From positions 1 through 61,159 of the IMG/VR virus record IMGVR_UViG_3300025652_000068: 61,159 bases of DNA; one strand, written 5' to 3'. Within the stretch, counting starts at the first letter, position 1. Each line of letters begins with the position of its first letter. Shown one piece after another: positions 4,969-28,599 of this stretch. The stretch comes from a virus (taxonomy: Duplodnaviria > Caudoviricetes). The position numbers and the translations under genes are program-made. The notes below the pieces were generated by a model, which saw nothing but the letters and a program-made list of their open reading frames with translations, did no database searches and had not been told where the DNA came from.

Positions 4969-5715
4969 CTAGTATATACCTTTAAAATTGTTGCCTCTAA
5001 TTGCAGCACCGCCACCACGCAATTTTTTACTTTTAATGGCTTTATCTCTTGAACCCATATATTCTGCTGTACTTGATTCAATACGACCATCACCATCATA
5101 ATCTTTGTTTGCCATTTTACCCGTATTAGCTTTCATGATACCGCCAGCTTTACGCTGACCAAATCTTTGACCACCAGCATTAGTTGGTTTCTTTTTCCTT
5201 GCACCAGCACCAGCACCAGCACCAGCACCAGCACCAGCTTTTTTAAGGGCCTCTTGTCTGTTTAAAGCACTTACTTTTTTACCATCAACAGTGTATGTTT
5301 TTAAAGGCGGGTTTTTACCTTCAGGTCTGCCTTTAATTGAACTAGCCGCACTAATTGACTTATCTTCAACTCTACTAGCCGATGGACCTTTCATTTCATG
5401 TTTTTTAGCGGCTTTGTATTTTTTACCTTTAAAAGTAAATATTGTGCCTGGACCTTTTGCTAGAGCAACAGAAAATGCTTTACCGAAACCACTTAATGCT
5501 TTTGCTTTACCTGCTGGTCCTGCATCACCTGCTTTACCACCAATTCTTGGGTCTATTGTAGTTCTGCTTCTAGCACCACCTGCAAGATTATATTGTGGAC
5601 CTTTAATTCCTTTTTTACCTGCTGGTCCAGCATCACCTTTAGTTCCACCTATACGAGGATCTATTGTTGTTCGTTTTAATTTACCGCTTCCTTTATTACT
5701 TGGTCCTACTGCCAT
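4969..5715 (-). CDS. Basic Gly/Lys-rich putative internal virion protein
   Basis: Strong SD (AGGAGG); duplicated RTTIDPRIGG..GDAGPAGK; GA repeat; C-terminal RGGGAAIRG..FKGIY. Confidence 0.6.
   Translation of the reverse strand: MAVGPSNKGSGKLKRTTIDPRIGGTKGDAGPAGKKGIKGPQYNLAGGARSRTTIDPRIGGKAGDAGPAGKAKALSGFGKAFSVALAKGPGTIFTFKGKKYKAAKKHEMKGPSASRVEDKSISAASSIKGRPEGKNPPLKTYTVDGKKVSALNRQEALKKAGAGAGAGAGAGARKKKPTNAGGQRFGQRKAGGIMKANTGKMANKDYDGDGRIESSTAEYMGSRDKAIKSKKLRGGGAAIRGNNFKGIY
5201..5236. repeat. (GCACCA)6 in-frame hexamer tandem repeat encoding a Gly-Ala run
   Basis: Read directly. Confidence 0.9.
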
Positions 5716-12004: not shown

Positions 12005-12685
12005 TTATTTTTTCTTCTCTGGTGCGTATAAATTATTAAATGTGTATTCCCAATCCATGTAACTGTCGTGCGCTTCTGCTTTATGTGTCCATTGTGATGG
12101 AATAAAATCTGGTGGACCATTCCCAGTCACCCACATAGCAGGTGAAGTCACGCGTACGCGATTATTAGGTAAGGCTACAAAACAACCTTTCCACGGACCT
12201 TCAGTCAATGCTAGTACATGTGATTGTTTATGTTGTGCTGGATCATCTGCTATTTCACTGTTTGTGTAATCTACAGTAAAATAATATTTAGCAGTATAGA
12301 ATTCGTTTTCAATTCGAGCTAACCAAGGACTTGAACTAGTTCTATCAAAAATTACAATTGAATGATCTCTAGAAGATACATCCCAAGGTTGAGCTATATG
12401 TGTTGGCATGGGTGGTGGTATTTCATCTAGTGGTTCATCTTCGACCAATGCAGTAATTGGCATACGCGCCCACATTGCACCACCATGCGGATTTTCCAAA
12501 CGATTCTCTTCATCTTCACAACCAGTAAAGATAACTTGAAAACTTAAACAACGATCTGGGATACAGTTAACTGCGATAACATAACAGTGTAGAAACTCAC
12601 CGTGATAAGCACGATGGTTATGTGTAAATTCTTTTCTGACCCATGCCTTTAAAACTAAAGGTATGTTCGATATTAAATGTGACAA
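12005..12685 (-). CDS. Hypothetical phage protein
   Basis: 226 aa, GGAMWARMPITAL, QHKQSHV and PNNRVR motifs. Confidence 0.6.
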   Translation of the reverse strand: MSHLISNIPLVLKAWVRKEFTHNHRAYHGEFLHCYVIAVNCIPDRCLSFQVIFTGCEDEENRLENPHGGAMWARMPITALVEDEPLDEIPPPMPTHIAQPWDVSSRDHSIVIFDRTSSSPWLARIENEFYTAKYYFTVDYTNSEIADDPAQHKQSHVLALTEGPWKGCFVALPNNRVRVTSPAMWVTGNGPPDFIPSQWTHKAEAHDSYMDWEYTFNNLYAPEKKK

Positions 12686-13472: not shown

Positions 13473-15807
13473 CTTTACCAGTGTCCTGTTTCAATTTATC
13501 ACGCATGATATCTAATTTATCATCTGCGACTCGTATTCTTTCTTTACCAGCATCTTCACTGTCTTCACGTTCCATTTTATCTAAATCAATTCGTTGGTCA
13601 AACTCATCTGCTTTTCTCTGTTCTTGCACTAAGAATTCTTCACCCTTACGTTGCATGTCAGCAGCACGCATATCTAACTCTTGTTGCTTCAATCTAACCA
13701 ATGGATCATCAGCAGGCTGCTCTTGTTCAACTAATTCTTCTGTCAATACTTGTATTCTTTCTGCATGCACGCCATCAAAAATCTGCCTAAACCCTTCTGG
13801 ATCAGTTTGTTGTAGTTGCATTACATCAGGTTGTTCTTTTTGAATTAAAATTAAAGATTGAGCCTTAGCTTTGAAAGATATGTGTTCACTAATGTGTGCT
13901 TGTAATAAAGCATACACTTGTGGGTTCATTTGTACCATTCTGGTTTTCATAAACGCCATGTGAGCAAAAATATGCGCATCATGGTTTTGAAACTCAAATA
14001 CTTTAAGAGGTTTCATAGCTAAAGCGTCTGCATTTTCTAATGCAGGGTCTTTTGGTTGCGGTTCTTCTTGTTTTTTAAGCAAAGTGTTAATGTCTTTTGT
14101 ACCTAATGCTGCATAAACACGACGATATGCTTCATGTATATTGTGCATTTGCGGATTTGACTGAGCAATTTGCAATTGTGTCTGTGCTAAAGTCACTCTT
14201 TGCGACATTGAGAAGATATTTGGATCTGCAACCGGTATTACATCAACTTCTGGACTAAAATCAGCCTGTTTTACCATTCGATCACCACCATAAACCGCAT
14301 ATGGGTACACTGGAGGCAGATATGAAGCAAAAACATTGTTCAAAAGTCTAAATTCTTGTCGCATTGCGTAGTAACAACGCTTATGTATGGCACTCATGAC
14401 CCTTGAACCACGTTCTAAAAGAGCAACAGTCGTACCAACTGCTCTATTTTTACCATCTTCACCCACTTGCATGTCTGCAATTGCTGCAAAACGCTGTCCA
14501 GCTTGTACTACAAAGCCTAAAAGTTGAAATAAAGTTTGACTTGGCTCTTTAAATGGTAATTGCATGAAAGAATCTTGTATTCTTCCACCAACAATATCAA
14601 CATCTCTGAACTCACCTGGTTGAAAGGGCTGATCATCATCACGAATACGCATACCACGAGTTTTAAAACCAGCTGGTAGGTTAGCTAATGTACCTGCATC
14701 TAGTAATTGTCTTAACGATGCAGTAGCGGTCTTGCTCAAACCACCAATCATGTGTATTAAACCAAAACCATAGAAACCTAAACCAGGTAAAAATTTGTAA
14801 TGCACAAAAAATTCTTTGCGTTTAAGTAATGGATCATCAGGTTCAAAGTTACGATAGATAGATAATATTTCTCTTGAACCTTCGTCTAAAGTTACAATGT
14901 AAGGTATCTTTATATTTTTTTCATCGCTCTTGTTTTCAGGATCTACTAAATCTAAATCAACATGCATTTCTAAAACATTAAATTGGTAATCACCGTCGGC
15001 ATCACCTGAACGATTTTGACCACTTAACTCATTGTATTTATCTTGCACTTCACTATCTTCCATGCGACTAGGTAGAATATCTACATCACGATAAAATCCT
15101 ATTTGTTGTTTTTTTAAAATATCGTTTTCGCTCATACGAACTAGATGTGTAATACGCTCACAGTCTTTTAGGTCTGTAGCATAGTAAGGCACGACTAAAT
15201 CTTCCGCAGGTACAAATTTTGATATTGCTCGTTGTAATACATCATCAAAATAAACTTTTTTAAATGCAGATCCAGCAAGTGGTAAATAAAATAATAATTG
15301 ATCAAAATCAGGAGTGTATTCTTCCATCTCCTCAGTAATCATATAGTTCATAAATTCTTCAACACGTTGTGCTTGTGCTTCTTTTTCTGGTGTCAAAGCA
15401 CCAACGACTTTTGAACTAACCGGTCCATCAGAAGGTAACAATTCTTTGTAAGCTTGCGCTTGAAATTGAGTCACTGATTCAGCAAGCATTGGATGAGTCA
15501 CTGAACTAGCGCCTTGAAAAGGACCGCTTTCATTATTGTATTTAAAACCTAGTAAATCTAAACCAGAAGTGTACGACTTTTCCCAATCACTTCTTGATTC
15601 TTTGTCTTTTTTGTAATCGGCGAGTAATTCATTAGCCATACCAGCTAGTATTCTTTCATCCATACCTTCAGCAAGATTGACATAAAAATCCTGAGCCTCT
15701 TCTTGCACTTGCTCTGGTTCAACAGCTTCATCTGTAATTTCTACATCAACAGGTTCAACTGCATCTACTTCTTCTTGCGTTACTTGAATATTGTCTTCAA
15801 CAGCCAT
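13456..15807 (-). CDS. Portal protein
   Basis: 783 aa between TerL and scaffold/MCP; G.AFKKVY, GFYGFG and LLDAGTL.NL motifs, C-terminal coiled coil. Confidence 0.85.
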   Translation of the reverse strand: MAVEDNIQVTQEEVDAVEPVDVEITDEAVEPEQVQEEAQDFYVNLAEGMDERILAGMANELLADYKKDKESRSDWEKSYTSGLDLLGFKYNNESGPFQGASSVTHPMLAESVTQFQAQAYKELLPSDGPVSSKVVGALTPEKEAQAQRVEEFMNYMITEEMEEYTPDFDQLLFYLPLAGSAFKKVYFDDVLQRAISKFVPAEDLVVPYYATDLKDCERITHLVRMSENDILKKQQIGFYRDVDILPSRMEDSEVQDKYNELSGQNRSGDADGDYQFNVLEMHVDLDLVDPENKSDEKNIKIPYIVTLDEGSREILSIYRNFEPDDPLLKRKEFFVHYKFLPGLGFYGFGLIHMIGGLSKTATASLRQLLDAGTLANLPAGFKTRGMRIRDDDQPFQPGEFRDVDIVGGRIQDSFMQLPFKEPSQTLFQLLGFVVQAGQRFAAIADMQVGEDGKNRAVGTTVALLERGSRVMSAIHKRCYYAMRQEFRLLNNVFASYLPPVYPYAVYGGDRMVKQADFSPEVDVIPVADPNIFSMSQRVTLAQTQLQIAQSNPQMHNIHEAYRRVYAALGTKDINTLLKKQEEPQPKDPALENADALAMKPLKVFEFQNHDAHIFAHMAFMKTRMVQMNPQVYALLQAHISEHISFKAKAQSLILIQKEQPDVMQLQQTDPEGFRQIFDGVHAERIQVLTEELVEQEQPADDPLVRLKQQELDMRAADMQRKGEEFLVQEQRKADEFDQRIDLDKMEREDSEDAGKERIRVADDKLDIMRDKLKQDTGKDEKTK

Positions 15808-18364: not shown

Positions 18365-19840
18365 CTAGTAGTAGTTATAGGTTTTCTCAGGACGATCTTC
18401 ATCATCTTTATAATCTGAGTATAACTCAACAAAGTTTCCTTGTCTGTATCGTAGTATTGCCTGAGTCGTGGAATCAACATAGTCATCATTGGCGCCATGC
18501 GGAAAGGCGGCACATTCGTCAATCACATCTTCTGCAAATTTTTCACCATACGGATACCACACGGCTCCACTTTCAAAGACGGGTGCACAACTGTTAACTC
18601 TCGTATGTTTGTCATTTCCTCTGGTAGGCGTGAATGGTACCACTGGAATACCCATTCTTCTAAACTCCTGGGTCAGTGGTTCGCCAGACGCTTTTTGTTC
18701 GACAATAATGGTTTCAGGTTCCCAATACTTTTGTGCATCGAGAGCCACGGCTTTAAGTTCTGGAAAGTCATACTTACCGCGAATGGCATCGAGTAAAATA
18801 ATATTCGGTGCCCCACCTTCTTCTGGAAAAAATACTCCCCAAGTGGTAATTGCAGAATAGTCAGCGGTTTCTTTTTTCGAGAACGCCGTATCATAACTTT
18901 GAATAACATGTTGTAACATAGGTAAAGTATCTTGTTCCCACGGCTGCCACCAGTCGCGTTTGATAATAGCGCCTTCTTCTGAGGTTGGTTCTTGCATGTA
19001 TTGTGCTGACCAGTTTCTAATTGGAATAGATGCTTTGATTTTTTCTAGCTCTTCTAGCTCCCAATATTCTGGCCACACTGGGTTCCCTGAGTCGAGGATC
19101 GCTGGAAACGAAACTTGTTTCCATGAATCTGCTTTGGGTTCGGTTTGAGCCTTCAAGAGCCTTCCCGTTAAATCGTCCTCGGCCCATCGGGTCATAACAA
19201 CTAGGATCGAGCCTCCTGGTTGTAAACGTTGTCTGGGTCCTGAAGTGTACCAGTCGTACGCACGTTCCATGGCAGTGTCCGACATAGAATCTTGCTCCGT
19301 GTGGGGGTCATCAATAATCAATAAATCCGCACCACGGCCCGTGATGGACGAACCAACTCCAGCAGCATAGTATTCACCACCTTGATTAGTTTCCCATCTA
19401 CCTTTGGCTTTGGAGTCCTCACGCAGTTTCACATCACCAAAGATTTGTTTGTACTCTGGTGAGTCAATAATGTTACGAACCTTAGCTCCGAACCTTGCGG
19501 CAAGTTCTGTATTGTGAGAAACCTGCATAATTTTTAATTTTGGATACTTACCAATAATCCAAGCAGGGTAGTAAACAGATGCAAATTCAGATTTAGTATG
19601 TCTAGGTGGCATATTAATTAAGAGCCTCCCTTTTCTTTGGTCTGCGATATCAGTAAATTCTTTAGCTATAATCTGATGATGGCCCCACTGGCTTGGATCT
19701 TTTGATTTTCTACAAATAAAATCGGGCCAGACTTCTTGAACAAAAGCTAAAAAATTATCCTGACAAAGCTTTACATGCTGTATCCAAAGCTTTTCTACTT
19801 CGAGCCTCATTTGTTCTGTGGTCATTAGGTCTGTCTGCAT
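18365..19840 (-). CDS. terL: Terminase large subunit
   Basis: MPPRHTKS Walker A, LLIIDDP Walker B, YDTA and DDYVD nuclease motifs. Confidence 0.92.
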   Translation of the reverse strand: MQTDLMTTEQMRLEVEKLWIQHVKLCQDNFLAFVQEVWPDFICRKSKDPSQWGHHQIIAKEFTDIADQRKGRLLINMPPRHTKSEFASVYYPAWIIGKYPKLKIMQVSHNTELAARFGAKVRNIIDSPEYKQIFGDVKLREDSKAKGRWETNQGGEYYAAGVGSSITGRGADLLIIDDPHTEQDSMSDTAMERAYDWYTSGPRQRLQPGGSILVVMTRWAEDDLTGRLLKAQTEPKADSWKQVSFPAILDSGNPVWPEYWELEELEKIKASIPIRNWSAQYMQEPTSEEGAIIKRDWWQPWEQDTLPMLQHVIQSYDTAFSKKETADYSAITTWGVFFPEEGGAPNIILLDAIRGKYDFPELKAVALDAQKYWEPETIIVEQKASGEPLTQEFRRMGIPVVPFTPTRGNDKHTRVNSCAPVFESGAVWYPYGEKFAEDVIDECAAFPHGANDDYVDSTTQAILRYRQGNFVELYSDYKDDEDRPEKTYNYY

Positions 19841-19998
19841 AAGCTAATTATAACCATATCTAGACTTTTTGCTAGTATGTGCATCTATGAAATAGGATAT
19901 ATAAGAGGTTTTTGCTGTAAGCTGGGGCTTGTGCGTGGCGTGTGATAAAGAGCATCAAAGCATATTGCATCTTGGATTGAGCCTTGTAAATCATAGGC

Positions 19999-20026
19999 AA
20001 AAAAAATGCGACTTCCTTGTCGCATT
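19999..20026 (-). terminator. Intrinsic terminator after 20054..20296
   Basis: AATGCGAC-loop-GTCGCATT followed by a U-run on the minus strand. Confidence 0.75.
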
Positions 20027-20053
20027 AAACTTCTAGCAAGTTTTAAGACTAGT

Positions 20054-20296
20054 CTATTCTCTATCTCCTACTATTTTTTTCATTAATGGTGAGACACCTA
20101 CAGCAATATCATTCAACATGTCTTGCGATTGAGCTGTGCCTTGATATTTTAATAGGCTATCCATAATTACTTTTTCAAGTAATGCAGAAAATACAACATA
20201 GTTAACTTTATTATCTTCCATGAATTCTGCTACTTGCGATTCGTTAACTTCTGCTACTTGATTATTAACAAATTGTACTAAGTCAAAGTTAGGCAT
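20054..20296 (-). CDS. Hypothetical early protein
   Basis: 80 aa, SD AGGAG, TAATG coupling. Confidence 0.65.
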   Translation of the reverse strand: MPNFDLVQFVNNQVAEVNESQVAEFMEDNKVNYVVFSALLEKVIMDSLLKYQGTAQSQDMLNDIAVGVSPLMKKIVGDRE

Positions 20297-20673
20297 TATT
20301 CTTCTCCTTTAATAGTTAGCTCATTATAAGATGTAATAGTAGTATTACCTATTAACAATTCGTCTATTGTACTGTTAGCAATAACACCCATGCTTTTTAT
20401 AGTCTCAATTACATTTTTGTAATCAACAGTATTTCTGCATTTAGGTGTAAGGTAGAAATTAATTGCAACATCATCAACATTGATTGCAATCGTATTGCCT
20501 TTTGATTTTTCAATAATAGCTAAAACATTTTTTCTACTATCTTTATATAATGCTTTATCACTATCATGTTGAGTTTTAAAATCTATGAAAGATTGCAAAT
20601 ATTCTCTTTCATGTTTTTTAAGTAATGCAGTTTTAGTAACTACAAATTTTTGGTTAAGATTTTGTAAATTCAT
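20296..20673 (-). CDS. Hypothetical early protein
   Basis: 125 aa, SD AGGAG, own promoter. Confidence 0.65.
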   Translation of the reverse strand: MNLQNLNQKFVVTKTALLKKHEREYLQSFIDFKTQHDSDKALYKDSRKNVLAIIEKSKGNTIAINVDDVAINFYLTPKCRNTVDYKNVIETIKSMGVIANSTIDELLIGNTTITSYNELTIKGEE

Positions 20674-20715
20674 ATTTTTACTCCTATTGGTTATTAATAA
20701 AAAACTTACTCTTAT

Positions 20716-20743
20716 ATATTACTCCTATTATCTCCCATGTCTA
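20716..20743 (-). promoter_or_regulatory. Putative sigma70 promoter
   Basis: TAGACA-16bp-TAATAT, containing TGGGAGA. Confidence 0.5.
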
Positions 20744-20979
20744 CCTATATATAGCAAATAAGTGAAATTAATTTTATGCAGATGTAGCAGGAATTTCTCT
20801 GCAGGAAGCTTCCGTATGTATATATAAGATCCCCCAACCCCCGACCACGCAACGGCGGGACGGGGAACAGAGTATGGAAAGACGAGCTATGGACGAAGCT
20901 GGTGTGTGCCCCGGTAACCTTCGGCTTTATATATAAAGATCAGAAATCGAGAGCACGCCACGGCGGGACGGCGGGGGCT

Positions 20980-21084
20980 TCAAAAGAAATGTGCAGCGGT
21001 GAAGATCAGACCAAGCAAGAAGAGTCCTGGCATCCAGAACGCCAGGACCAGGAAGACGCAAGCGAGAAACATGAGTATGCCCAT
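20980..21084 (-). CDS. 34-aa hydrophobic membrane peptide (not in ORF track)
   Basis: MGILMFLACVFLVLAFWMPGLFLLGLIFTAAHFF; TGATG-coupled to upstream ORF. Confidence 0.55.
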   Translation of the reverse strand: MGILMFLACVFLVLAFWMPGLFLLGLIFTAAHFF

Positions 21085-21242
21085 CACACATCGGCGTCGG
21101 GACGAGCTTCGGTATCAGCCTCACCCTTAGCATCAGACTCTGGCACCGGATCTTGGTGCTCCGGTATCTCTATGACCACGAAACCATCACGCTCAGTCAC
21201 AACGGCGTTGGGATTCAATTGTAGCAGTGTATCAATTAACAT
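21084..21242 (-). CDS. 52-aa acidic protein (not in ORF track)
   Basis: MLIDTLLQLNPNAVVTERDGFVVIEIPEHQDPVPESDAKGEADTEARPDADV; SD GGAGGT. Confidence 0.6.
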   Translation of the reverse strand: MLIDTLLQLNPNAVVTERDGFVVIEIPEHQDPVPESDAKGEADTEARPDADV

Positions 21243-21361
21243 TTGTACCTCCCTTCACGGTTCTTGAGATCTTTTTTATCTTGCCAATCTAGAATGATCA
21301 GCAACACGAGGGCCACGGCCATGGCACCGAAGGCAAACCCTATAATAAATGTTGTAAGCAT
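21236..21361 (-). CDS. 41-aa single-TM protein (not in ORF track)
   Basis: MLTTFIIGFAFGAMAVALVLLIILDWQDKKDLKNREGRYKC; SD AGGAGA; promoter upstream. Confidence 0.6.
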   Translation of the reverse strand: MLTTFIIGFAFGAMAVALVLLIILDWQDKKDLKNREGRYKC

Positions 21362-21392
21362 CTGTTTCTCCTTTGTTGTTGTTTAGATCATC

Positions 21393-21421
21393 AGTGTCCC
21401 ATGTATCCCCATACATGTCAA
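21393..21421 (-). promoter_or_regulatory. Putative sigma70 promoter
   Basis: TTGACA-17bp-GACACT; spacer contains TGGGA and the ATGTAT-CCCC-ATACAT inverted repeat. Confidence 0.55.
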
Positions 21422-21524
21422 CATTATTACAACCATGAGCAACTTTCTCAGGACCTGGTGATGCTATCCTTTATATATAAAGACAAACTGGATCGCTTCC
21501 CAAAACGGGACGGCGGGAGCAGAC

Positions 21525-21559
21525 AAAAAAAACCCCCGAGCCGAAGCTCAGGGGAAAAA
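21525..21559 (-). terminator. Intrinsic terminator after 21656..22255
   Basis: CCCCTGAG-loop-CTCGGGGG followed by U8 on the minus strand. Confidence 0.75.
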
Positions 21560-21655
21560 GTGAGGTTGTATTAACTTAACCGATAATCAACCCCTTCGAG
21601 ACGGGAGACGGGGGTGTTGTCTCCCAATGAAGTCCTTTTCAGTCCTAAGTTACCT

Positions 21656-22255
21656 TTAACATATCTCAAAGCCCCCTGACTGTCTACAAAAATCTGCAAA
21701 GTCTTGAACATTCTCAACACTAAACGGATAACTGTCGTCCCACGACTTTTGGCTATAAAGATTCTCCCACTCTTTATTTTGTATTTCTGGATAATTAGTT
21801 GGAGCTATATCTTTGTTACCAGTCAGCTTGATTACACTTTCACGCAAAGCACTCATTTTTTCTTCAATGCCTTTGTTGAACTCTTCAGCTTCTGCCATAG
21901 ACTTTTCAACTATCATCTGATATTCAGCAGTGTGTCCTTGCTTGATTAAAGCTTCTAAAGTGTTGGCAATTCTAATAGCTGTATCTTCATCAACTTGATG
22001 ACCACTATTCTCATGCCAACGACCGTACTCATCTTCAGAAATCTGATCAGTATTCTCATACACATATTGAGCTAGTCTTCGCCACCACCAAACATTATTG
22101 CGAAAGTACACACCTTTGTTGGCATCTTCATATTTCTCAGATTGCTCAAAGTATGCTTTTTTTTCCTCGCCTGATGGATTAGTGTCCCAATCAATCTCAG
22201 GCTTTACGCTATCTTCTCGTATTGTTGGATTCAATCCATATACATCAAAACCCAT
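21656..22255 (-). CDS. Hypothetical early protein (probable start MGFDVYG)
   Basis: SD AGAGGA; YFRNNVWWW and F..FC..SGGF motifs; own promoter and terminator. Confidence 0.65.
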   Translation of the reverse strand: MGFDVYGLNPTIREDSVKPEIDWDTNPSGEEKKAYFEQSEKYEDANKGVYFRNNVWWWRRLAQYVYENTDQISEDEYGRWHENSGHQVDEDTAIRIANTLEALIKQGHTAEYQMIVEKSMAEAEEFNKGIEEKMSALRESVIKLTGNKDIAPTNYPEIQNKEWENLYSQKSWDDSYPFSVENVQDFADFCRQSGGFEIC

Positions 22256-22292
22256 AATCATATCCTCTCTTTTTTGTTTACTTACATCTCCC

Positions 22293-22320
22293 ATGATATC
22301 AAAGATAACAAGAATGTAAA
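22293..22320 (-). promoter_or_regulatory. Putative sigma70 promoter
   Basis: TTTACA-16bp-TATCAT, followed by GGGAGA. Confidence 0.5.
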
Positions 22321-22561
22321 GACATTATCTGTAAACAAATTACCTTTATGCTTGAAGCATCTGAAGGAGGCCCGGAAAAAACCGGGGTATCCTATCCTTA
22401 TATATAACAGACCAAGATCCGTCGGGACGGCGGGACGGCGGGGCGTGAGCCACAGGCTTCTCCAGCACGGAGGCGTCCTGGTTCACGGATCCTGGATGCC
22501 AGGGCTTTTATATATAAAGAGCAACGGGACGGGACGGGGCAACGGGACGGCGGGACGAGCT

Positions 22562-22969
22562 TCAGGAAGGAGGCGTCGGATCCTGGGGATGGGATGCCTG
22601 GATCAATATATTATATAAGTTATCGACGGCAGGACGGGACGGCGCGGGACGGGACAGCGATACTGCGACGCCTGGCTCACGGATCTCGAGAAGTTCCAGC
22701 TCGGTCTGCGAGGCATGCACATTAAGAATACGGACGATACCACCCGCCTGCTGATGATTTAAATGCCAGTTAACCTGAAACTTAGACAGCCCACAATTCT
22801 TAGCATTTGTTGCTTTCAATTCTAGCCAAAACGAACGGCCTTCAATACAGCCATAAACGTCAGGAATTCCGTTGATTGTAGAGGATTCTATACGAGTTAA
22901 ATGCCAGTTCTTACGACCTTTCTGAAGCTGGTTAATTCTTTTCCACAATTTAGCTTCTTTGGTAGCCAT
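22562..22969 (-). CDS. PD-(D/E)XK Holliday junction resolvase / VRR-NUC-like nuclease
   Basis: E..LW, RIES, GIPD, WLELK and Q..W motifs; the C-terminal tail runs into the GC-rich repeats. Confidence 0.75.
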   Translation of the reverse strand: MATKEAKLWKRINQLQKGRKNWHLTRIESSTINGIPDVYGCIEGRSFWLELKATNAKNCGLSKFQVNWHLNHQQAGGIVRILNVHASQTELELLEIREPGVAVSLSRPAPSRPAVDNLYNILIQASHPQDPTPPS

Positions 22970-23015
22970 ACAGGGTGCTATATCTTTATAAGTTAATTTA
23001 TTATACGATTATATC

Positions 23016-23321
23016 ATGGAACAAAAAATGGACAAATACGGAAATTTAACTATATCACTTTTTGATATTTTAGATCAACAAGATGACGCTAAATTTATTT
23101 ATTTTTATTTAGCGTTAGATAGACCAATAAAAAAAATTATTGAAAATGCTTTTTATGTTGCATACACCAAAAAATTATTAGACAGAGATAATCCAGACAT
23201 AATTCACCATGAAGAAAATGGTGTGACACATATTGAAGTCCACCCACAAGACATCATAAAAAATATAGAAATTATTAAAAAAATTTTAGCTACTGATGTG
23301 TTTGAAGATGAAAACGAATAA
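23016..23321 (+). CDS. Hypothetical protein
   Basis: 101 aa, only long ORF in the interval. Confidence 0.55.
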   Translation: MEQKMDKYGNLTISLFDILDQQDDAKFIYFYLALDRPIKKIIENAFYVAYTKKLLDRDNPDIIHHEENGVTHIEVHPQDIIKNIEIIKKILATDVFEDENE

Positions 23322-23565
23322 ACCAAAATATCCACTATATATCGTAATATGGAAAGACCATACTGGTAATGCTTCTTGGCAGAGTGTTGAAGAAATTCAC
23401 AAAGAAAAATACATAATAGCCTACAGTATTGGCTATCTATTATCTGAAGATAAAGAATGTGTAAAATTATGTAATACTTACACCTCTGATGGTGGTTGGG
23501 GTGGATTAGATCTTATTTTAAAATCTTGTATTGTGGAGATGTTCGAATTAGAAATACTTGATTAA
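23296..23565 (+). CDS. Small phage protein, unknown function
   Basis: V.WKDH....W and SIGYLL motifs. Confidence 0.6.
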   Translation: MCLKMKTNKPKYPLYIVIWKDHTGNASWQSVEEIHKEKYIIAYSIGYLLSEDKECVKLCNTYTSDGGWGGLDLILKSCIVEMFELEILD

Positions 23566-24056
23566 TCGTTGCCCTGAACAATTATAGTATTAGCTCCAAT
23601 TTTATCTTCAAGTTCTTTTAGTCTGTTTTCTAATTGTTCTCTACTCATGCCCTCTAAAGTATTGTGAGTTATTTCCTTCTTATCAATGTACTGACCAGCT
23701 AACTGGCCTGATCTGAATTCAGCATTTATAGCGGCGGTATATTGACCTTTCTTTTCACTACCGTCGCGTAACCTATCCAGTATTTTATATCTTCTTAACT
23801 TATCTTTCTCGTATTTAGCCTGTTCCTCGCTTAATCTTCTTTCTAGGAATCTACACACATGTGGATTTATTTCAGGATTTGTAAGTCTACTACCTAAGAC
23901 CATAGCTGAATTTTCACTTTTTGAACTATAGCCTGCTTTAATAACAGCATCTTTCTTGGAGATTATACCCCAGTCAGCAACTAAAGCGTTAACAAACGCT
24001 ACTTGTTTTTCAGTTAAATCATCAAATGTTTTCATTGTTTTTGGTTTACTTGGCAC
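23562..24056 (-). CDS. terS: Terminase small subunit
   Basis: LTEKQ.AFV, A.IKAGYS HTH and AAINAE..G...G.Y.DK motifs; SD AGGAGGTG. Confidence 0.75.
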   Translation of the reverse strand: MPSKPKTMKTFDDLTEKQVAFVNALVADWGIISKKDAVIKAGYSSKSENSAMVLGSRLTNPEINPHVCRFLERRLSEEQAKYEKDKLRRYKILDRLRDGSEKKGQYTAAINAEFRSGQLAGQYIDKKEITHNTLEGMSREQLENRLKELEDKIGANTIIVQGND

Positions 24057-24245
24057 CTATGCACCTCCTTACAAATAATATTTTAAATAAAATTTCCATA
24101 GTCGCCTCCTCTGTTTTCCATAGTTTTTAAGGAATATTCCTAGTAAGCTATTGTCTATAATCCTATTCATACAGTGTTTTCCATACTTTCCTTAATTCCT
24201 AGCTCTATACAAATAATATTTTTTATTTTTTTTGTATAGAAGTGC

Positions 24246-24878
24246 TTAGGTGTAAATTATATCCTTTTGTCTCGTCATCATGTCAGTTAATTGCTCATCG
24301 GTAACATTATAAACAATTGCTTGAGTTATCAATTGTTTTATTAATCCCTTTTTGTCATCAAAATACTCTGTATTCGGCTGTCTGTATTGTGCATATAGGT
24401 TGTGTAGCTTTGTTTCGGAGATCTCCTCTGTCTCTGGTCGTACGCCGATGAGCCGTACGCCGGTAACCGATAGCACCTGGTCCTTGATCCGATGTACCCA
24501 TTCCTTGCTCCTACCAATCTTTATGTACCCTTGTTCATTTTCTAGAAAATATATGGTTGCCGGTGTTCTCTCCACCTCAAACAGATCCTCGTAGCTTTTA
24601 CCTTCTTTCACTAAAACATCACACTCCTTGACCCTGGTTCGTGCTTCTTCAATCGTCATAATAGGCCAGTAACCTATGACCTTTGATTTATGTACTTTAT
24701 TGTATCCGTAATCAAATATAAAACTATGCGTACCTTTCTTTGATGCACTGACCAGTAAATTTTTAGTCAAAGCATCACGCACATAAATATATTTTACTTT
24801 TAAAAAATCAGGTTGCCAATTGTTTAAAAATTCTTCCGTCACTAAAACAGTCAAATCTTTAGTAGTTTTTCGAACCAT
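24246..24878 (-). CDS. Arm-type DNA-binding domain fused to a GIY-YIG (T5orf172-like) domain
   Basis: N-half RD....L.V.....G..SF...IG.WP.MTIEEAR; C-half IYF......IKIG.S....RI...E..LH......EYF. Confidence 0.6.
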   Translation of the reverse strand: MVRKTTKDLTVLVTEEFLNNWQPDFLKVKYIYVRDALTKNLLVSASKKGTHSFIFDYGYNKVHKSKVIGYWPIMTIEEARTRVKECDVLVKEGKSYEDLFEVERTPATIYFLENEQGYIKIGRSKEWVHRIKDQVLSVTGVRLIGVRPETEEISETKLHNLYAQYRQPNTEYFDDKKGLIKQLITQAIVYNVTDEQLTDMMTRQKDIIYT

Positions 24879-27498: not shown

Positions 27499-28599
27499 TT
27501 ATCCATTATCTGATGTTTTATGGGAGATGTCAACAGAAATAATTGCGTGTCCTATAAACCACGCTATCTGTGGTACAATGGCGTTACCTAGTCCTTTGAT
27601 TCTTCCAACTCTACCTTTGTCCAGTTCATAGGAAATCCCATCAGGAACTCCACAAAGTTCGGATTGAGCTTGCCACCAGTTTTCTTCGGCAGTGAATTGG
27701 AAAGCATCTTCTGCTTCGCTGTATCCATGTTCTTCCAATCTGCTGCTTGAGGTGTCGGATACTGTTCCTGTCTCATCATCATGGTCGGTAGACTGTCCGA
27801 GTTGCGACTCATTGATGCTGGACTTAGCGTTGAGTCCTTGTAATCCCTCGCTGCTGGTGTTGGATACATCTTCTCCAGATGATGCACTGCATCCTTCAGC
27901 TTCACGCCATACCTCACGCCCTTCTTGTTCTTCCTGGAGAAACTGCCATTGTGGAGTTCGACATTCTTGACCACTCCCCCTTCCAGATCGCAGGCTCTCG
28001 GTGTCGGATACATTCTCATGGTTTCTGGGTCTACTTGCTCTCTGAGATTGCTCGGCTTGGTTCTGCCCTTGCTTTCTGGACTTCTTGGTGGCAAGTGATC
28101 CATTGTGTTCGGAGTAGCCAATAATCCAGAGCCTTTCCCTTTTGTGCCACGCACCAACGGATGAAGCTGGAATAATAAATGTCCTTGTGTCGTAACCTTC
28201 ACTCGCCAAGTCCTCGAGTACGGTGTCAAGACCAAGTTTAATGTGTCCACTAACGTTTTCTCCAACAAACCAAGTGGGCTTGCACTCTTGGACAATTCTA
28301 AAAGTGTCTGGCCAGAGGTGTCTTGGATCTTCTTCGCCTTTTTGTTTGCCTGCGACACTAAAAGGTTGACAGGGGTAGGAACAAGTGATGAGGTCAATGT
28401 CATCAACTCCTGTTGTTTCTTTGATATCTTCATAAGTTAACTCCTTCAAGTCATTAAATATTGGTATGTTTGGAAAATTTTTTTGCAATACTTGTTGCGG
28501 ATATTTGTCTATTTCACAAAAAGCTACCGTGTTAATACCAAGCTCACGAAAAGCTAATGCCCAACCACCAATACCTGAACACATATCAAGATGGTTCAT
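27499..28599 (-). CDS. DNA cytosine-5 methyltransferase, catalytic (alpha-like) polypeptide
   Basis: Motif I (D.CSGIGG), IV (PCQPFS), VI (ENV), VIII (H.RER) and X (GLGNAIVP); no motif IX in this frame. Confidence 0.9.
   Translation of the reverse strand: MNHLDMCSGIGGWALAFRELGINTVAFCEIDKYPQQVLQKNFPNIPIFNDLKELTYEDIKETTGVDDIDLITCSYPCQPFSVAGKQKGEEDPRHLWPDTFRIVQECKPTWFVGENVSGHIKLGLDTVLEDLASEGYDTRTFIIPASSVGAWHKRERLWIIGYSEHNGSLATKKSRKQGQNQAEQSQRASRPRNHENVSDTESLRSGRGSGQECRTPQWQFLQEEQEGREVWREAEGCSASSGEDVSNTSSEGLQGLNAKSSINESQLGQSTDHDDETGTVSDTSSSRLEEHGYSEAEDAFQFTAEENWWQAQSELCGVPDGISYELDKGRVGRIKGLGNAIVPQIAWFIGHAIISVDISHKTSDNG
27505..27533 (-). promoter_or_regulatory. Putative sigma70 promoter
   Basis: TTGACA-17bp-GATAAT; spacer contains TCTCCCAT. 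Confidence 0.6.
27588..28433 (-). CDS. Overlapping +1-frame methyltransferase beta-like polypeptide (putative TRDs plus motif IX)
   Basis: 281-aa nested ORF with four (P/A)TP.[A/T].D repeats and LNPNFVEFLMGFPMNWT (motif IX-like); start codon uncertain. Confidence 0.7.
   Translation of the reverse strand: MKISKKQQELMTLTSSLVPTPVNLLVSQANKKAKKIQDTSGQTLLELSKSASPLGLLEKTLVDTLNLVLTPYSRTWRVKVTTQGHLLFQLHPLVRGTKGKGSGLLATPNTMDHLPPRSPESKGRTKPSNLREQVDPETMRMYPTPRACDLEGGVVKNVELHNGSFSRKNKKGVRYGVKLKDAVHHLEKMYPTPAARDYKDSTLSPASMSRNSDSLPTMMMRQEQYPTPQAADWKNMDTAKQKMLSNSLPKKTGGKLNPNFVEFLMGFPMNWTKVELEESKD

What the first reader, a model, noticed from the sequence alone, without database searches (positions are those of the whole stretch)
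19890..22660. Polarised array of bipartite sites (TATA palindrome plus CGGGACGG arm) between self-contained early gene cassettes
Seen: the perfect 14-bp palindrome CTTTATATATAAAG at 20925 and 21469, with variants at ~20819, 22397, 22505, ~22606 and a weak one at ~19897. Each of the six clear copies is followed on the same side by GC-rich (A)CGGCGGGACGG / CGGGAC tracts, always G-rich on +. Adjacent copies are ~101-110 bp apart, and some share flanks (CTATCCT, GGCTTT, GGAGGCGTC..CGGATCCTGG). The sites fall at the boundaries of promoter-gene(s) units: [22320 promoter, 21656 gene, terminator], [21421 promoter, three microproteins], [20743 promoter, two genes, terminator]. Such GC-rich, strand-biased DNA stands out in an AT-rich genome. 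Inference: a dedicated cis-acting system. Options are terminase loading/cutting sites or the genome end (it lies between terS and terL), directional signals for staged DNA entry, a replication origin (melting palindrome plus iterons), or core-plus-arm recombination sites that exchange early cassettes. I know of no description of this element.
Basis: partly seen in the sequence, partly recalled or inferred. Interest (0 to 1): 0.85.

Follow-up and report, generated by a model that had tools for sequence, protein, structure and literature searches.

The report
Polar repeat modules between phage gene cassettes
A marine-type phage carries, in every gap between the small accessory gene cassettes that sit between its two DNA-packaging genes, a one-way ~100-base module (short C-rich repeats, a TATA stretch, a GC-rich palindrome); relatives carry the same module with different repeats, so it is a real, conserved control or docking element whose job is still unproven.

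Summary
CGGGACGG occurs 10 times in 61 kb, all on the + strand, all in 20856-22652 (0.12 expected). The TATA-plus-arm pair occurs 5 times forward and never reverse.

The window is a complete HTVC023P-type pelagiphage. The sites fill the variable region between a small nuclease gene next to terS and terL.

Read in gene sense, each ~100-bp unit is TGAAGC, then CCCGCCGTCCCG, ~26 nt, TTATATATA(A), ~12 nt, then a GC-rich palindrome.

Relatives carry polar arrays in the same interval with other boxes: 26 of 35 loci, against 0 of 31 and 1 of 29 control stretches. A second clade also has them.

Cassettes between units are gained, lost and permuted.

The units form no RNA structure. The phage has no integrase, resolvase or Y1 transposase. 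Contigs show no genome end there.

Best reading (0.36): DNA-level protein-binding arrays in the upstream control region of each cassette, which also act as recombination joints. Main rival (0.26): multi-copy TerS loading sites, because the TerS DNA-binding domain co-varies with box class.

The closest known kind is the T4 PeSL. I rate this a new variant of a known kind.

The parts
22586..22695 (-). Unit F. The C-box array is seen on the + strand as GGACGGGACGGCGCGGGACGGGAC at about 22626-22655. The degenerate TATA is at 22603-22618. The unit overlaps the 3' tail of the nuclease ORF.
22484..22585 (-). Unit E. C-box array 22524-22557 (five GGGAC on the + strand), TATA 22506-22519, GC palindrome region 22476-22504 (CCAGGATCC at 22487-22495).
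22360..22483 (-). Unit D. C-box array 22420-22444, TATA 22396-22409, GC dyad CCCGG-T6-CCGGG at 22367-22383.
21447..21530 (-). Unit C. C-box 21503-21517, exact palindrome 21469-21482, GC dyad at about 21449-21460. It lies directly after the terminator at 21533-21554.
20903..20982 (-). Unit B. C-box 20960-20977, exact palindrome 20925-20938, GC segment 20908-20921. The TGA stop of the third microprotein lies in the unit's TGAAGC edge.
20795..20902 (-). Unit A. C-box 20852-20866, TATA 20817-20828, palindrome GGAAGCTTCC at about 20803-20812.
19885..19945 (-). Degenerate unit in front of terL: a TATA-like stretch at about 19895-19905 with a C-rich stretch upstream in gene sense.
   Evidence: by eye; clear units at the same position in L052 and L054
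22562..22969 (-). 135-aa PD-(D/E)xK (VRR-NUC-like) nuclease gene. It is the conserved left border of the variable region, and its tail is encoded by unit F.
21656..22294 (-). Cassette 1: a 212-aa gene (homologue of HTVC023P gp23) with a promoter-like site at 22320-22293 and a terminator at 21554-21533.
   Evidence: RNA contigs lie on it
20980..21361 (-). Cassette 2: three microprotein ORFs (21236-21361, 21084-21242, 20980-21072). They are conserved as clusters g6, g3 and g8/g10.
20054..20673 (-). Cassette 3: a 125-aa and an 80-aa gene, with a promoter-like site at 20743-20716 and a terminator at 20026-20005.
   Evidence: RNA contigs lie on it
23562..24056 (-). terS (Terminase_2 family). Its N-terminal ~78 residues vary between lineages and co-vary with box class.
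18365..19840 (-). terL, the conserved right border of the variable region.
24092..24202 (-). A second, separate box array directly upstream of terS: five to six TA(T)GGAA(A/T) boxes in gene sense.

Best explanation
The bipartite sites are parts of a ~100-bp intergenic module. Read in the direction of transcription (the - strand) it consists of an array of 1-5 copies of a C-rich box (CCGTCCCG core), about 26 nt of free sequence, an AT-only TATA element, about 12 nt, and a short GC-rich palindrome.

I read it as a DNA-level protein-binding module. The box array would dock a sequence-specific protein that differs between phage lineages. The TATA element at a fixed distance would be the -10-like or melting element that the bound protein acts on. 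Together they would form a factor-dependent control region upstream of each accessory gene cassette, added to the ordinary sigma-70-type promoter.

The modules are direct repeats in one orientation, so recombination between them deletes, duplicates, inserts and re-orders cassettes. That makes this interval the hyperplastic region of the genome.

Shown: the anatomy, its polarity, its confinement to this interval, its conservation against a free spacer, lineage-specific boxes, cassette shuffling, and the lack of RNA structure. Inferred: that a protein binds, that the effect is on transcription, and who the binder is. TerS's N-terminal domain is the only candidate with any co-variation.
For: (1) The box and the TATA are conserved while the spacer is free. 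In 38 units from 6 genomes the information content is maximal at CCGTCCCG and TATA and near zero between them. Forty-one box clusters were found and 3 were dropped because they lie inside the 52-aa gene.
(2) The box-to-TATA distance is constrained: 24-31 nt in most units where a TATA was found, and 28-32 nt in the GTTCCC lineage (read by eye).
(3) The same architecture occurs with other boxes. The top polar 7-mer has at least 9 forward and at most 1 reverse copies in 26 of 35 distinct intervals, against 0 of 31 downstream and 1 of 29 upstream control stretches (counted by hand from the rows). The script's own threshold of at least 6 gave 30 of 35 against 9 of 31 and 8 of 29. In a second clade (terL 62-68% identical) 29 of 29 loci have at least 5 forward and at most 1 reverse copies.
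(4) Boxes are confined to this interval in the window and, by listed positions, almost wholly in three other genomes, with a few single copies elsewhere.
(5) Arrays also stand in divergent spacers, where no upstream co-directional gene ends. In HTVC027P an array at 12118-12154 abuts a TTGACA-17-TAGGAT promoter-like site. In L051 boxes at 5376 and 5451 lie between opposed ORFs. In L120 boxes lie next to an inverted terS. This argues for a DNA-level, promoter-side role.
(6) In HTVC027P the two genes behind such arrays (gp33, gp34) are the only members of a separate temporal class in an RNA-seq time course (PMC12753301, passages seen).
(7) A second array of the same style, boxes followed by an AT-rich stretch and then the gene, stands upstream of terS in the window and its relatives. 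Box arrays therefore look like a regulatory syntax of this phage group.
(8) Cassette order and content differ between units in 6 close genomes. L052 and L054 have the microprotein cassette before the 212-aa gene, L050 lacks that gene, and L049 and L050 have an extra gene. Homology breaks fall at 22540-22544, 21501-21505 and 20874, inside or beside units, and at promoters.
Against: Three of the six units (F, E, B) are followed by another unit, not by a gene.

The units hold no -35/-10 pair that reaches the scan's threshold.

The distance from the TATA to the ordinary promoter varies from about 60 to 100 nt.

Other promoters of the genome have no such arrays.

Box periods of 5 to 33 bp do not keep helical phase.

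No binder is identified.

The HTVC027P expression link rests on two genes that are also unusual in lying on the other strand.

The co-variation with the TerS DNA-binding domain fits the packaging rival at least as well.
Confidence: 0.36

Rival explanations
1. The units are multi-copy terminase-recognition (pac-type) sites. The box arrays would be bound by the N-terminal helix-turn-helix domain of TerS, and the TATA or GC palindrome would be where DNA is bent or cut. The repeated units would have let accessory cassettes settle between them.
For: The arrays lie between terS and terL and almost nowhere else.

The TerS N-terminal 78 residues vary between lineages while the rest of TerS is conserved.

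The split into TCCCG-type and AT-type boxes explains TerS N-domain identity better than any other of 210 possible partitions of 10 box classes (10.3 points). The comparison values are 2.0 for the TerS C-domain (15 of 210 partitions reach it), 3.9 for the nuclease that lies between terS and the arrays (7 of 210), 0.2 for terL and 0.6 for the 156-aa protein.

A helix-end motif, LT[N/S] against other residues, agrees with box class in 43 of 43 rows, with 4 coincident changes on the TerS tree.

The conserved array upstream of terS does not track TerS type, so if TerS has a lineage-specific target it is the cassette arrays.

Related genomes start at different points or assemble as circles, as expected for headful packaging (PMC9599517).
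Against: Only 2 (well-supported branches) to 4 independent pairs exist, too few for significance.

I set the class of the weak rows (L051, L107, L108, L059, L060) by hand, and the motif columns were left in the tree.

The same TCCCGTT box goes with very different recognition helices in the second clade.

There are 6-9 units spread over 2-4 kb between expressed genes, unlike any pac or cos site I can recall.

One relative (L119) has only 354 bp between the nuclease gene and terL and shows no array.

Contigs show no ends or joints here, but contigs cannot show them.
Confidence: 0.26
2. The units have no binding function of their own. They would be selfish or neutral repeated joints, like T4 PeSLs without the promoter, kept alike within a genome by unequal crossing-over and carried along with the cassettes.
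For: The number of tandem units varies from 2 to 4 at the same place in close relatives. Cassettes are shuffled at the units. No recombinase is needed for homologous exchange.
Against: The 8-12-bp box and the TATA are invariant, while the 26-nt spacer between them is free even between orthologous units. Recombination-driven homogenisation would keep whole units alike. The same architecture is kept with quite different boxes across two deep clades.
Confidence: 0.12
3. The units are replication-origin elements: iterons, an AT-rich melting element and a palindrome. The layout resembles the lambda origin or the clustered octamers of the P4 ori/crr, as I recall them.
For: The order is direct repeats, then an AT-rich element, then a GC palindrome. 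In L097 and HTVC023P the arrays are followed by 45-70 nt of AT-rich DNA.
Against: The replication genes lie 6-13 kb away. In the window the AT-rich element is only about 10 bp. There are many dispersed copies. The GC skew shows no turn here.
Confidence: 0.07
4. The element acts at RNA level. The C-rich, G-poor, unstructured arrays would be Rho loading sites or binding sites of an RNA-binding protein that ends or processes transcripts between cassettes.
For: All box types are pyrimidine-rich and G-poor in gene sense. The window's units fold no better than shuffles, and two fold worse (z from -0.8 to +1.7). Unit F is transcribed as the tail of the nuclease ORF, with no intrinsic terminator after it.
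Against: Several units lie just after strong intrinsic terminators. Arrays also stand in divergent spacers with no upstream transcript. Exact box conservation is not what Rho needs. That the host has Rho is recalled, not tested.
Confidence: 0.07
5. The boxes are polar host-directed signals: Chi-like protection from exonuclease, translocase-orienting octamers, or stop signals for staged DNA entry.
For: The octamer is strictly polar and G-rich on one strand.
Against: It is confined to 1.8 kb rather than spread over the genome. The box differs between phage lineages of one group, including AT-rich boxes, whereas a host enzyme's signal should be shared.
Confidence: 0.03

Closest known systems
PeSL (promoter-early stem-loop) cassettes of T4-type phages (PMC2839356: abstract and section 13 read; PMC4122927: abstract read)
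   Same: Both are short conserved intergenic motifs concentrated in hyperplastic regions beside ORFans. In both, the spacers combine a terminator and a strong sigma-70-like promoter, and insertions, deletions and replacements between close relatives have their breakpoints at the motifs.
   Different: A PeSL is the promoter plus the stem-loop. Here an extra module stands between terminator and promoter: a polar box array, a TATA and a GC palindrome. It has no -35/-10 pair and no RNA structure. It is confined to one interval, and its box differs by lineage. Mini-circles were not seen, but contigs cannot show them.
Halovirus HF2 intergenic repeats that carry promoters (PMC8707807: search listing and start of abstract only)
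   Same: Both are classes of repeated intergenic sequences with AT-rich motifs standing before genes of a virus. In HF2 they were shown to act as promoters.
   Different: HF2 is an archaeal virus with archaeal promoters, and its repeats are 29-58-bp units, not arrays of 5-12-bp boxes. No lineage-specific box is reported in what I saw.
Activator-dependent phage promoters such as T4 middle promoters (recalled, not looked up)
   Same: A phage-specific box upstream replaces a good -35 element and works together with a -10-like element. Genes can have such a promoter in tandem with an ordinary early promoter.
   Different: The boxes here are multi-copy and lie further upstream. No MotA/AsiA-like proteins were found. 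This is untested.
pac and cos recognition regions with repeated TerS sites (P1 pac, SPP1 pac, lambda cosB; recalled)
   Same: Short repeated boxes next to the terminase genes, with an AT-rich or bendable segment between or beside them, and a TerS N-terminal domain that varies with specificity.
   Different: Those are single compact sites of 100-300 bp. Here there are 6-9 units over about 2-3 kb with expressed genes between them, and no cut or end has been mapped.

Membership tests
T4-type PeSL | The motif itself contains a sigma-70-like early promoter. | tested here: not met
   Promoter-like sites (22320, 20743) lie 60-100 nt downstream of the units. No site within a unit reaches the scan's threshold.
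T4-type PeSL | The motif contains a stable stem-loop that terminates transcription. | tested here: not met
   The six units fold with z from -0.8 to +1.7 against shuffles. The terminators at 21554-21533 and 20026-20005 lie outside the units.
T4-type PeSL | It lies in hyperplastic regions next to ORFans, and breakpoints between relatives fall at the motifs. | tested here: met
T4-type PeSL | Excised mini-circles joined at the motif. | not testable with these tools
   Only contigs were available, and there are no joints in the region.
pac/cos TerS recognition site | Repeated boxes adjacent to the terminase genes. | tested here: met
pac/cos TerS recognition site | The boxes co-vary with the TerS DNA-binding domain. 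| tested here: inconclusive
   Best of 210 partitions, and 43 of 43 rows agree, but there are only 2-4 independent pairs. Counter-example: one box goes with different helices.
pac/cos TerS recognition site | Terminase cuts, or genome ends, map to the site. | not testable with these tools
   The runs are kept as contigs, and no pile-ups can be read from them.
pac/cos TerS recognition site | One compact site per genome. | tested here: not met
   There are 6 units plus a degenerate one over 2.8 kb.
Integron attC / site-specific cassette recombination | A dedicated recombinase is encoded by the element. | tested here: not met
   Phage_integrase, Resolvase and Y1_Tnp each give 0 matches at E up to 0.1 in the whole record, and the controls ring. 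Other recombinase families were not searched.
Iteron origin (lambda ori, P4 ori/crr) | Direct repeats next to an AT-rich region and an initiator gene. | tested here: inconclusive
   The repeats and a short AT element are present. The primase, helicase and polymerase genes lie at 28.6-36.5 kb. No initiator was identified.
Chi / translocase-orienting polar octamers | Skewed copies spread along the genome, and a signal shared by phages of one host. | tested here: not met
   All 10 copies lie within 1.8 kb, and the box differs by lineage.
Known RNA families (Rfam 15) | A match at the gathering score. | tested here: not met
   There are only three sub-threshold matches, all on the terminator at 21525-21614.

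The most novel reading that the evidence does not exclude
The box arrays are the lineage-specific address that the TerS DNA-binding domain reads. Each unit would then be both a terminase docking site and the joint at which accessory cassettes are captured, excised and re-inserted. Packaging specificity and gene exchange would be coupled, and the box type would define which co-infecting phages of the ocean's most abundant pelagiphage group can swap cassettes.
Probability: 0.1. Interest if true: 0.85.

Novelty: new variant of a known kind. Interest (0 to 1): 0.55.

Why it matters
[quoted passage not shown] Their early and accessory genes have no known function or regulation.

A conserved cis-module with lineage-specific boxes marks exactly the interval where these phages gain and lose genes. 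It gives three handles. First, it predicts an unknown sequence-specific binder, with TerS as a testable candidate. Second, it defines where cassettes recombine, which helps in reading metagenomic microdiversity and assembly breaks. Third, the existing cultured pairs (HTVC023P and HTVC027P on HTCC1062) and a published RNA-seq time course make the question directly testable.

If the binder is only a routine transcription factor, the element is an ordinary but previously undescribed promoter class.

Tried and rejected
RNA structure or terminator reading of the units: rejected for this lineage. In the GTTCCC lineage some boxes do form the 5' arm of a hairpin followed by a T-run (read by eye).

Rfam: nothing on the units.

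G-quadruplex: only units E and perhaps F have four G-runs, and AT-type lineages cannot form one. Dropped.

Site-specific recombinase: none of the three families searched was found.

Solved-structure sequence searches with terL, terS and the nuclease gave nothing useful. terL had one weak hit at E 7.8e-4, terS only chance hits, and the nuclease none.

It did yield the second clade.

Reads: all runs are kept as contigs. RNA contigs of three runs lie on terL, the 80-aa, 125-aa and 212-aa genes, terS and further genes. None lies on the units or the microproteins, which is no evidence either way. There are no joints, ends or pile-ups in the region.

Whole-genome comparison with G001 showed 67-87% nucleotide identity in the shared parts, too diverged to pin a binder by exclusion.

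The presence/absence matrix could not separate candidates, because the whole block 26000-22543 is co-inherited in the C-box lineage.

Supplements were closed. Table S3 of PMC12753301, with the temporal class of every HTVC027P gene, would bear on the expression argument.

Literature: four searches found no description of these arrays in pelagiphages. I read passages or sections only, not whole papers.

Full report
WHAT THE WINDOW IS. The 61,159-bp window is a whole IMG/VR virus record (CheckV completeness 100, no end repeats). Its terL is 71% identical in DNA to Pelagibacter phage HTVC023P. Nearly all genes lie on the - strand. terS is at 23562-24056 and terL at 18365-19840. Between them, in the direction of transcription, lie:
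- two small + strand ORFs;
- a 135-aa PD-(D/E)xK nuclease (IPDV...WLELK; PHROG matches to VRR-NUC-type fusions);
- three cassettes: a 212-aa gene, three microproteins, and a 125-aa plus an 80-aa gene.
The cassettes have promoter-like and terminator-like sites at their edges. HTVC023P has the same layout, including homologues of the nuclease and the 212-aa gene.

THE OBSERVATION. It is confirmed.
- CGGGACGG: 10 copies against 0.12 expected, all on the + strand, all in 20856-22652.
- TATATATAA: 11 matches against 2.1 expected, and 9 of the 11 are five sites in the region.
- The pair TATA-N-GGGACGG: 5 forward, 0 reverse.
- The 14-mer palindrome at up to 3 mismatches is not enriched on its own (12 against 10.7).
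- Shared flanks and the ~100-110-bp spacing hold.

ANATOMY. Read on the gene strand, 38 units from the window and five close relatives align (41 box clusters found, 3 inside a gene dropped). The consensus is TGAAGC, then CCCGCCGTCCCG(CCGT), about 26 nt of free sequence, TTATATATA(A), about 12 nt, a GC-rich palindrome (CCAGGATCC, GGAACCGGTTCC, GGAAGCTTCC and the like), and about 25 nt more. Information content is maximal at the box and the TATA and near zero in the spacer. The box-to-TATA distance is 24-31 nt in most units. Units stand singly or as 2-4 tandem copies, directly after a stop codon or an intrinsic terminator and 60-100 nt before the ordinary promoter. The first unit overlaps the 3' end of the nuclease ORF in every lineage examined, so the nuclease tail is encoded by the array.

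RELATIVES. Of 591 terL relatives in IMG/VR, the best 80 were fetched.
- The six closest with enough flank (L049, L050, L052-L055; terL 95-98%) carry 7-9 exact box copies (CCGTCCCG), 6-8 box clusters each, all in one orientation upstream of terL.
- L051 (terL 96%) has none, but has about 9 copies of a different polar box, TTTCCCGA, often with an inverted half-box 60-70 nt on.
- Other lineages have (GTTCCC)n, (GTTTCCC)n, (TTCTCG)n, AATCATA(T), ATCTCTAC or TAACCATAATCA.
- HTVC027P has (CAAGCNN)n, and HTVC023P has 25-33-bp repeats.
- In the nuclease-to-terL interval, the top polar 7-mer has at least 9 forward and at most 1 reverse copies in 26 of 35 distinct sequences. Equal-length control stretches give 0 of 31 downstream and 1 of 29 upstream (hand count). 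These rows are not independent lineages.
- A second clade, found through a distant terS, shows arrays in 29 of 29 loci with at least 5 forward and at most 1 reverse copies, and in 21 of 29 with at least 9.
- In three further genomes the boxes lie almost wholly in this interval, with a few single copies elsewhere.
- A TATA...AAAG element 17-32 nt after the array recurs in lineages with other boxes.

CASSETTE SHUFFLING. Maps of six close genomes are:
- window: nuclease | U U U | 212-aa | U | microproteins | U U | 125-aa, 80-aa | terL;
- L049 and L053: the same order with extra small genes;
- L050: lacks the 212-aa gene and has two other genes;
- L052 and L054: a microprotein cassette comes before the 212-aa gene.
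Homology breaks fall inside or beside units (22540-22544, 21501-21505, 20874) and at promoters (22303-22306, 20774, 21358-21367). So the content between sites varies and is even permuted while the sites stay. The phage record has no match to Phage_integrase, Resolvase or Y1_Tnp. Exchange is therefore most simply homologous recombination between direct repeats, as described for T4 PeSLs (PMC2839356, abstract and section 13).

WHAT IT IS NOT. It is not a structured RNA or terminator in this lineage (z from -0.8 to +1.7). It is not a known RNA family. It is not a genome-wide polar signal. It is not shown to be a genome end: a DNA contig bridges 19577-26350, though it may come from the source sample, and related genomes start at different points or assemble as circles.

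TWO LIVE READINGS.

(a) Promoter-side control arrays. Arrays occur in divergent spacers where no transcript arrives from upstream (HTVC027P, L051, L120). In HTVC027P the array abuts a TTGACA-17-TAGGAT site. The two genes behind such arrays are the only members of a separate temporal class (PMC12753301 passages). A second array of TA(T)GGAA(A/T) boxes stands directly upstream of terS in the window (24092-24202) and, as TAGGAA or TGGGAA, in most clade-1 relatives whatever their TerS type. Box arrays before an AT-rich element therefore look like a regulatory habit of this group.

Against (a): half of the window's units are followed by another unit, no -35 element is present, and no binder is known.

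(b) TerS docking arrays. The TerS N-terminal ~78 residues vary while the rest is conserved. The TCCCG-type against AT-type box split is the best of 210 partitions for the TerS N-domain (10.3 identity points). It is much weaker for the TerS C-domain, for the nuclease that lies between terS and the arrays, for terL and for a neighbouring protein. A helix-end motif agrees with box class in 43 of 43 rows, with four coincident changes on the tree.

Against (b): there are only 2-4 independent pairs (not significant), I set some classes by hand, the same box goes with quite different helices in the second clade, the sites are dispersed, and L119 shows no array in its 354-bp interval.

VERDICT. The element is real, conserved, polar and lineage-variable, and it marks the joints of a hyperplastic cassette region. 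I commit to a DNA-level protein-binding control module that doubles as a recombination joint (0.36). TerS docking is the main rival (0.26). The two share the claim that a lineage-specific protein reads the boxes, and TerS could be that protein in either case. I found no description of it in four literature searches. The nearest known kind is the PeSL, from which it differs in having a separate, unstructured, promoter-less box-TATA-palindrome module with lineage-specific boxes.

Noticed in passing
window 24092-24202 (- strand sense): A separate array of five to six TA(T)GGAA(A/T) boxes lies directly upstream of terS and is the only such cluster in the window. TAGGAA or TGGGAA arrays stand at the same place in HTVC023P and most clade-1 relatives regardless of TerS type. 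The second clade has GTACACAGAA there instead.
   Followed up: partly
L097 5753-7840; L103 4403-6909; L116 747, 893; L120 2192, 2338; L122 414, 560: Pairs of GTTC-N7-GTTC cluster in the nuclease-terL interval of some lineages: 22 forward against 11 reverse over all 80 loci. They are not enriched in the window (2 against 1.3 expected). I recall this as the SOS (LexA) box form of Alphaproteobacteria, but did not test that.
   Followed up: partly
window 24246-24878 (-): A 210-aa protein combines an integrase-type Arm DNA-binding domain (E 7e-6, just under the cut-off) with a T5orf172/MUG113 (GIY-YIG-like) domain. It is about 90% conserved in the C-box lineage, about 40% in three others, and absent from the flanks of the rest.
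   Followed up: partly
window 23016-23321 and 23296-23565 (+): Two small ORFs lie on the opposite strand between terS and the nuclease, against the orientation of nearly all other genes. They are conserved in L049-L054, L051, L059 and L060 and match no family.
   Followed up: no
window 21632: Contigs of two RNA runs from different studies both end at exactly 21632, 24 nt after the stop of the 212-aa gene and just before a GGGAGAC...GTCTCCC hairpin, while the DNA contig runs on. This is a weak hint of an RNA 3' end or processing site.
   Followed up: no
window 27499-28599 (-): The phage encodes a C-5 cytosine DNA methylase (Pfam E 4e-45). The GC palindromes of the units (GGATCC, CCWGG, CCGG types) are the kind of site such enzymes or restriction systems read. 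No link was tested.
   Followed up: no
window 20054-20296 (-): The 80-aa cassette protein has a weak, sub-threshold likeness to T4 Dmd, the antidote of RnlA/LsoA toxins (Pfam E 0.005; PHROG E 0.0013).
   Followed up: no
window 22562-22700; all lineages: The C-terminal tail of the nuclease is encoded by the first box array, so it changes with the box (SRPAPSRP, SRFPF, NHI repeats and so on). The conserved part ends at LLE(I/V)REP.
   Followed up: partly
L002 (HTVC027P) 14078-14605; L120 1-261: In HTVC027P and in L120, terS lies on the strand opposite to terL, so the terS block has been inverted at least in these lineages.
   Followed up: no
window 19800-23100 (runs X1-X20): All 15 DNA runs that hold the stretch, and the 5 RNA runs with part of it, are labelled freshwater metagenome in their records. 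The DNA runs may be the source. A relative of a marine SAR11 phage group thus appears in samples so labelled.
   Followed up: no
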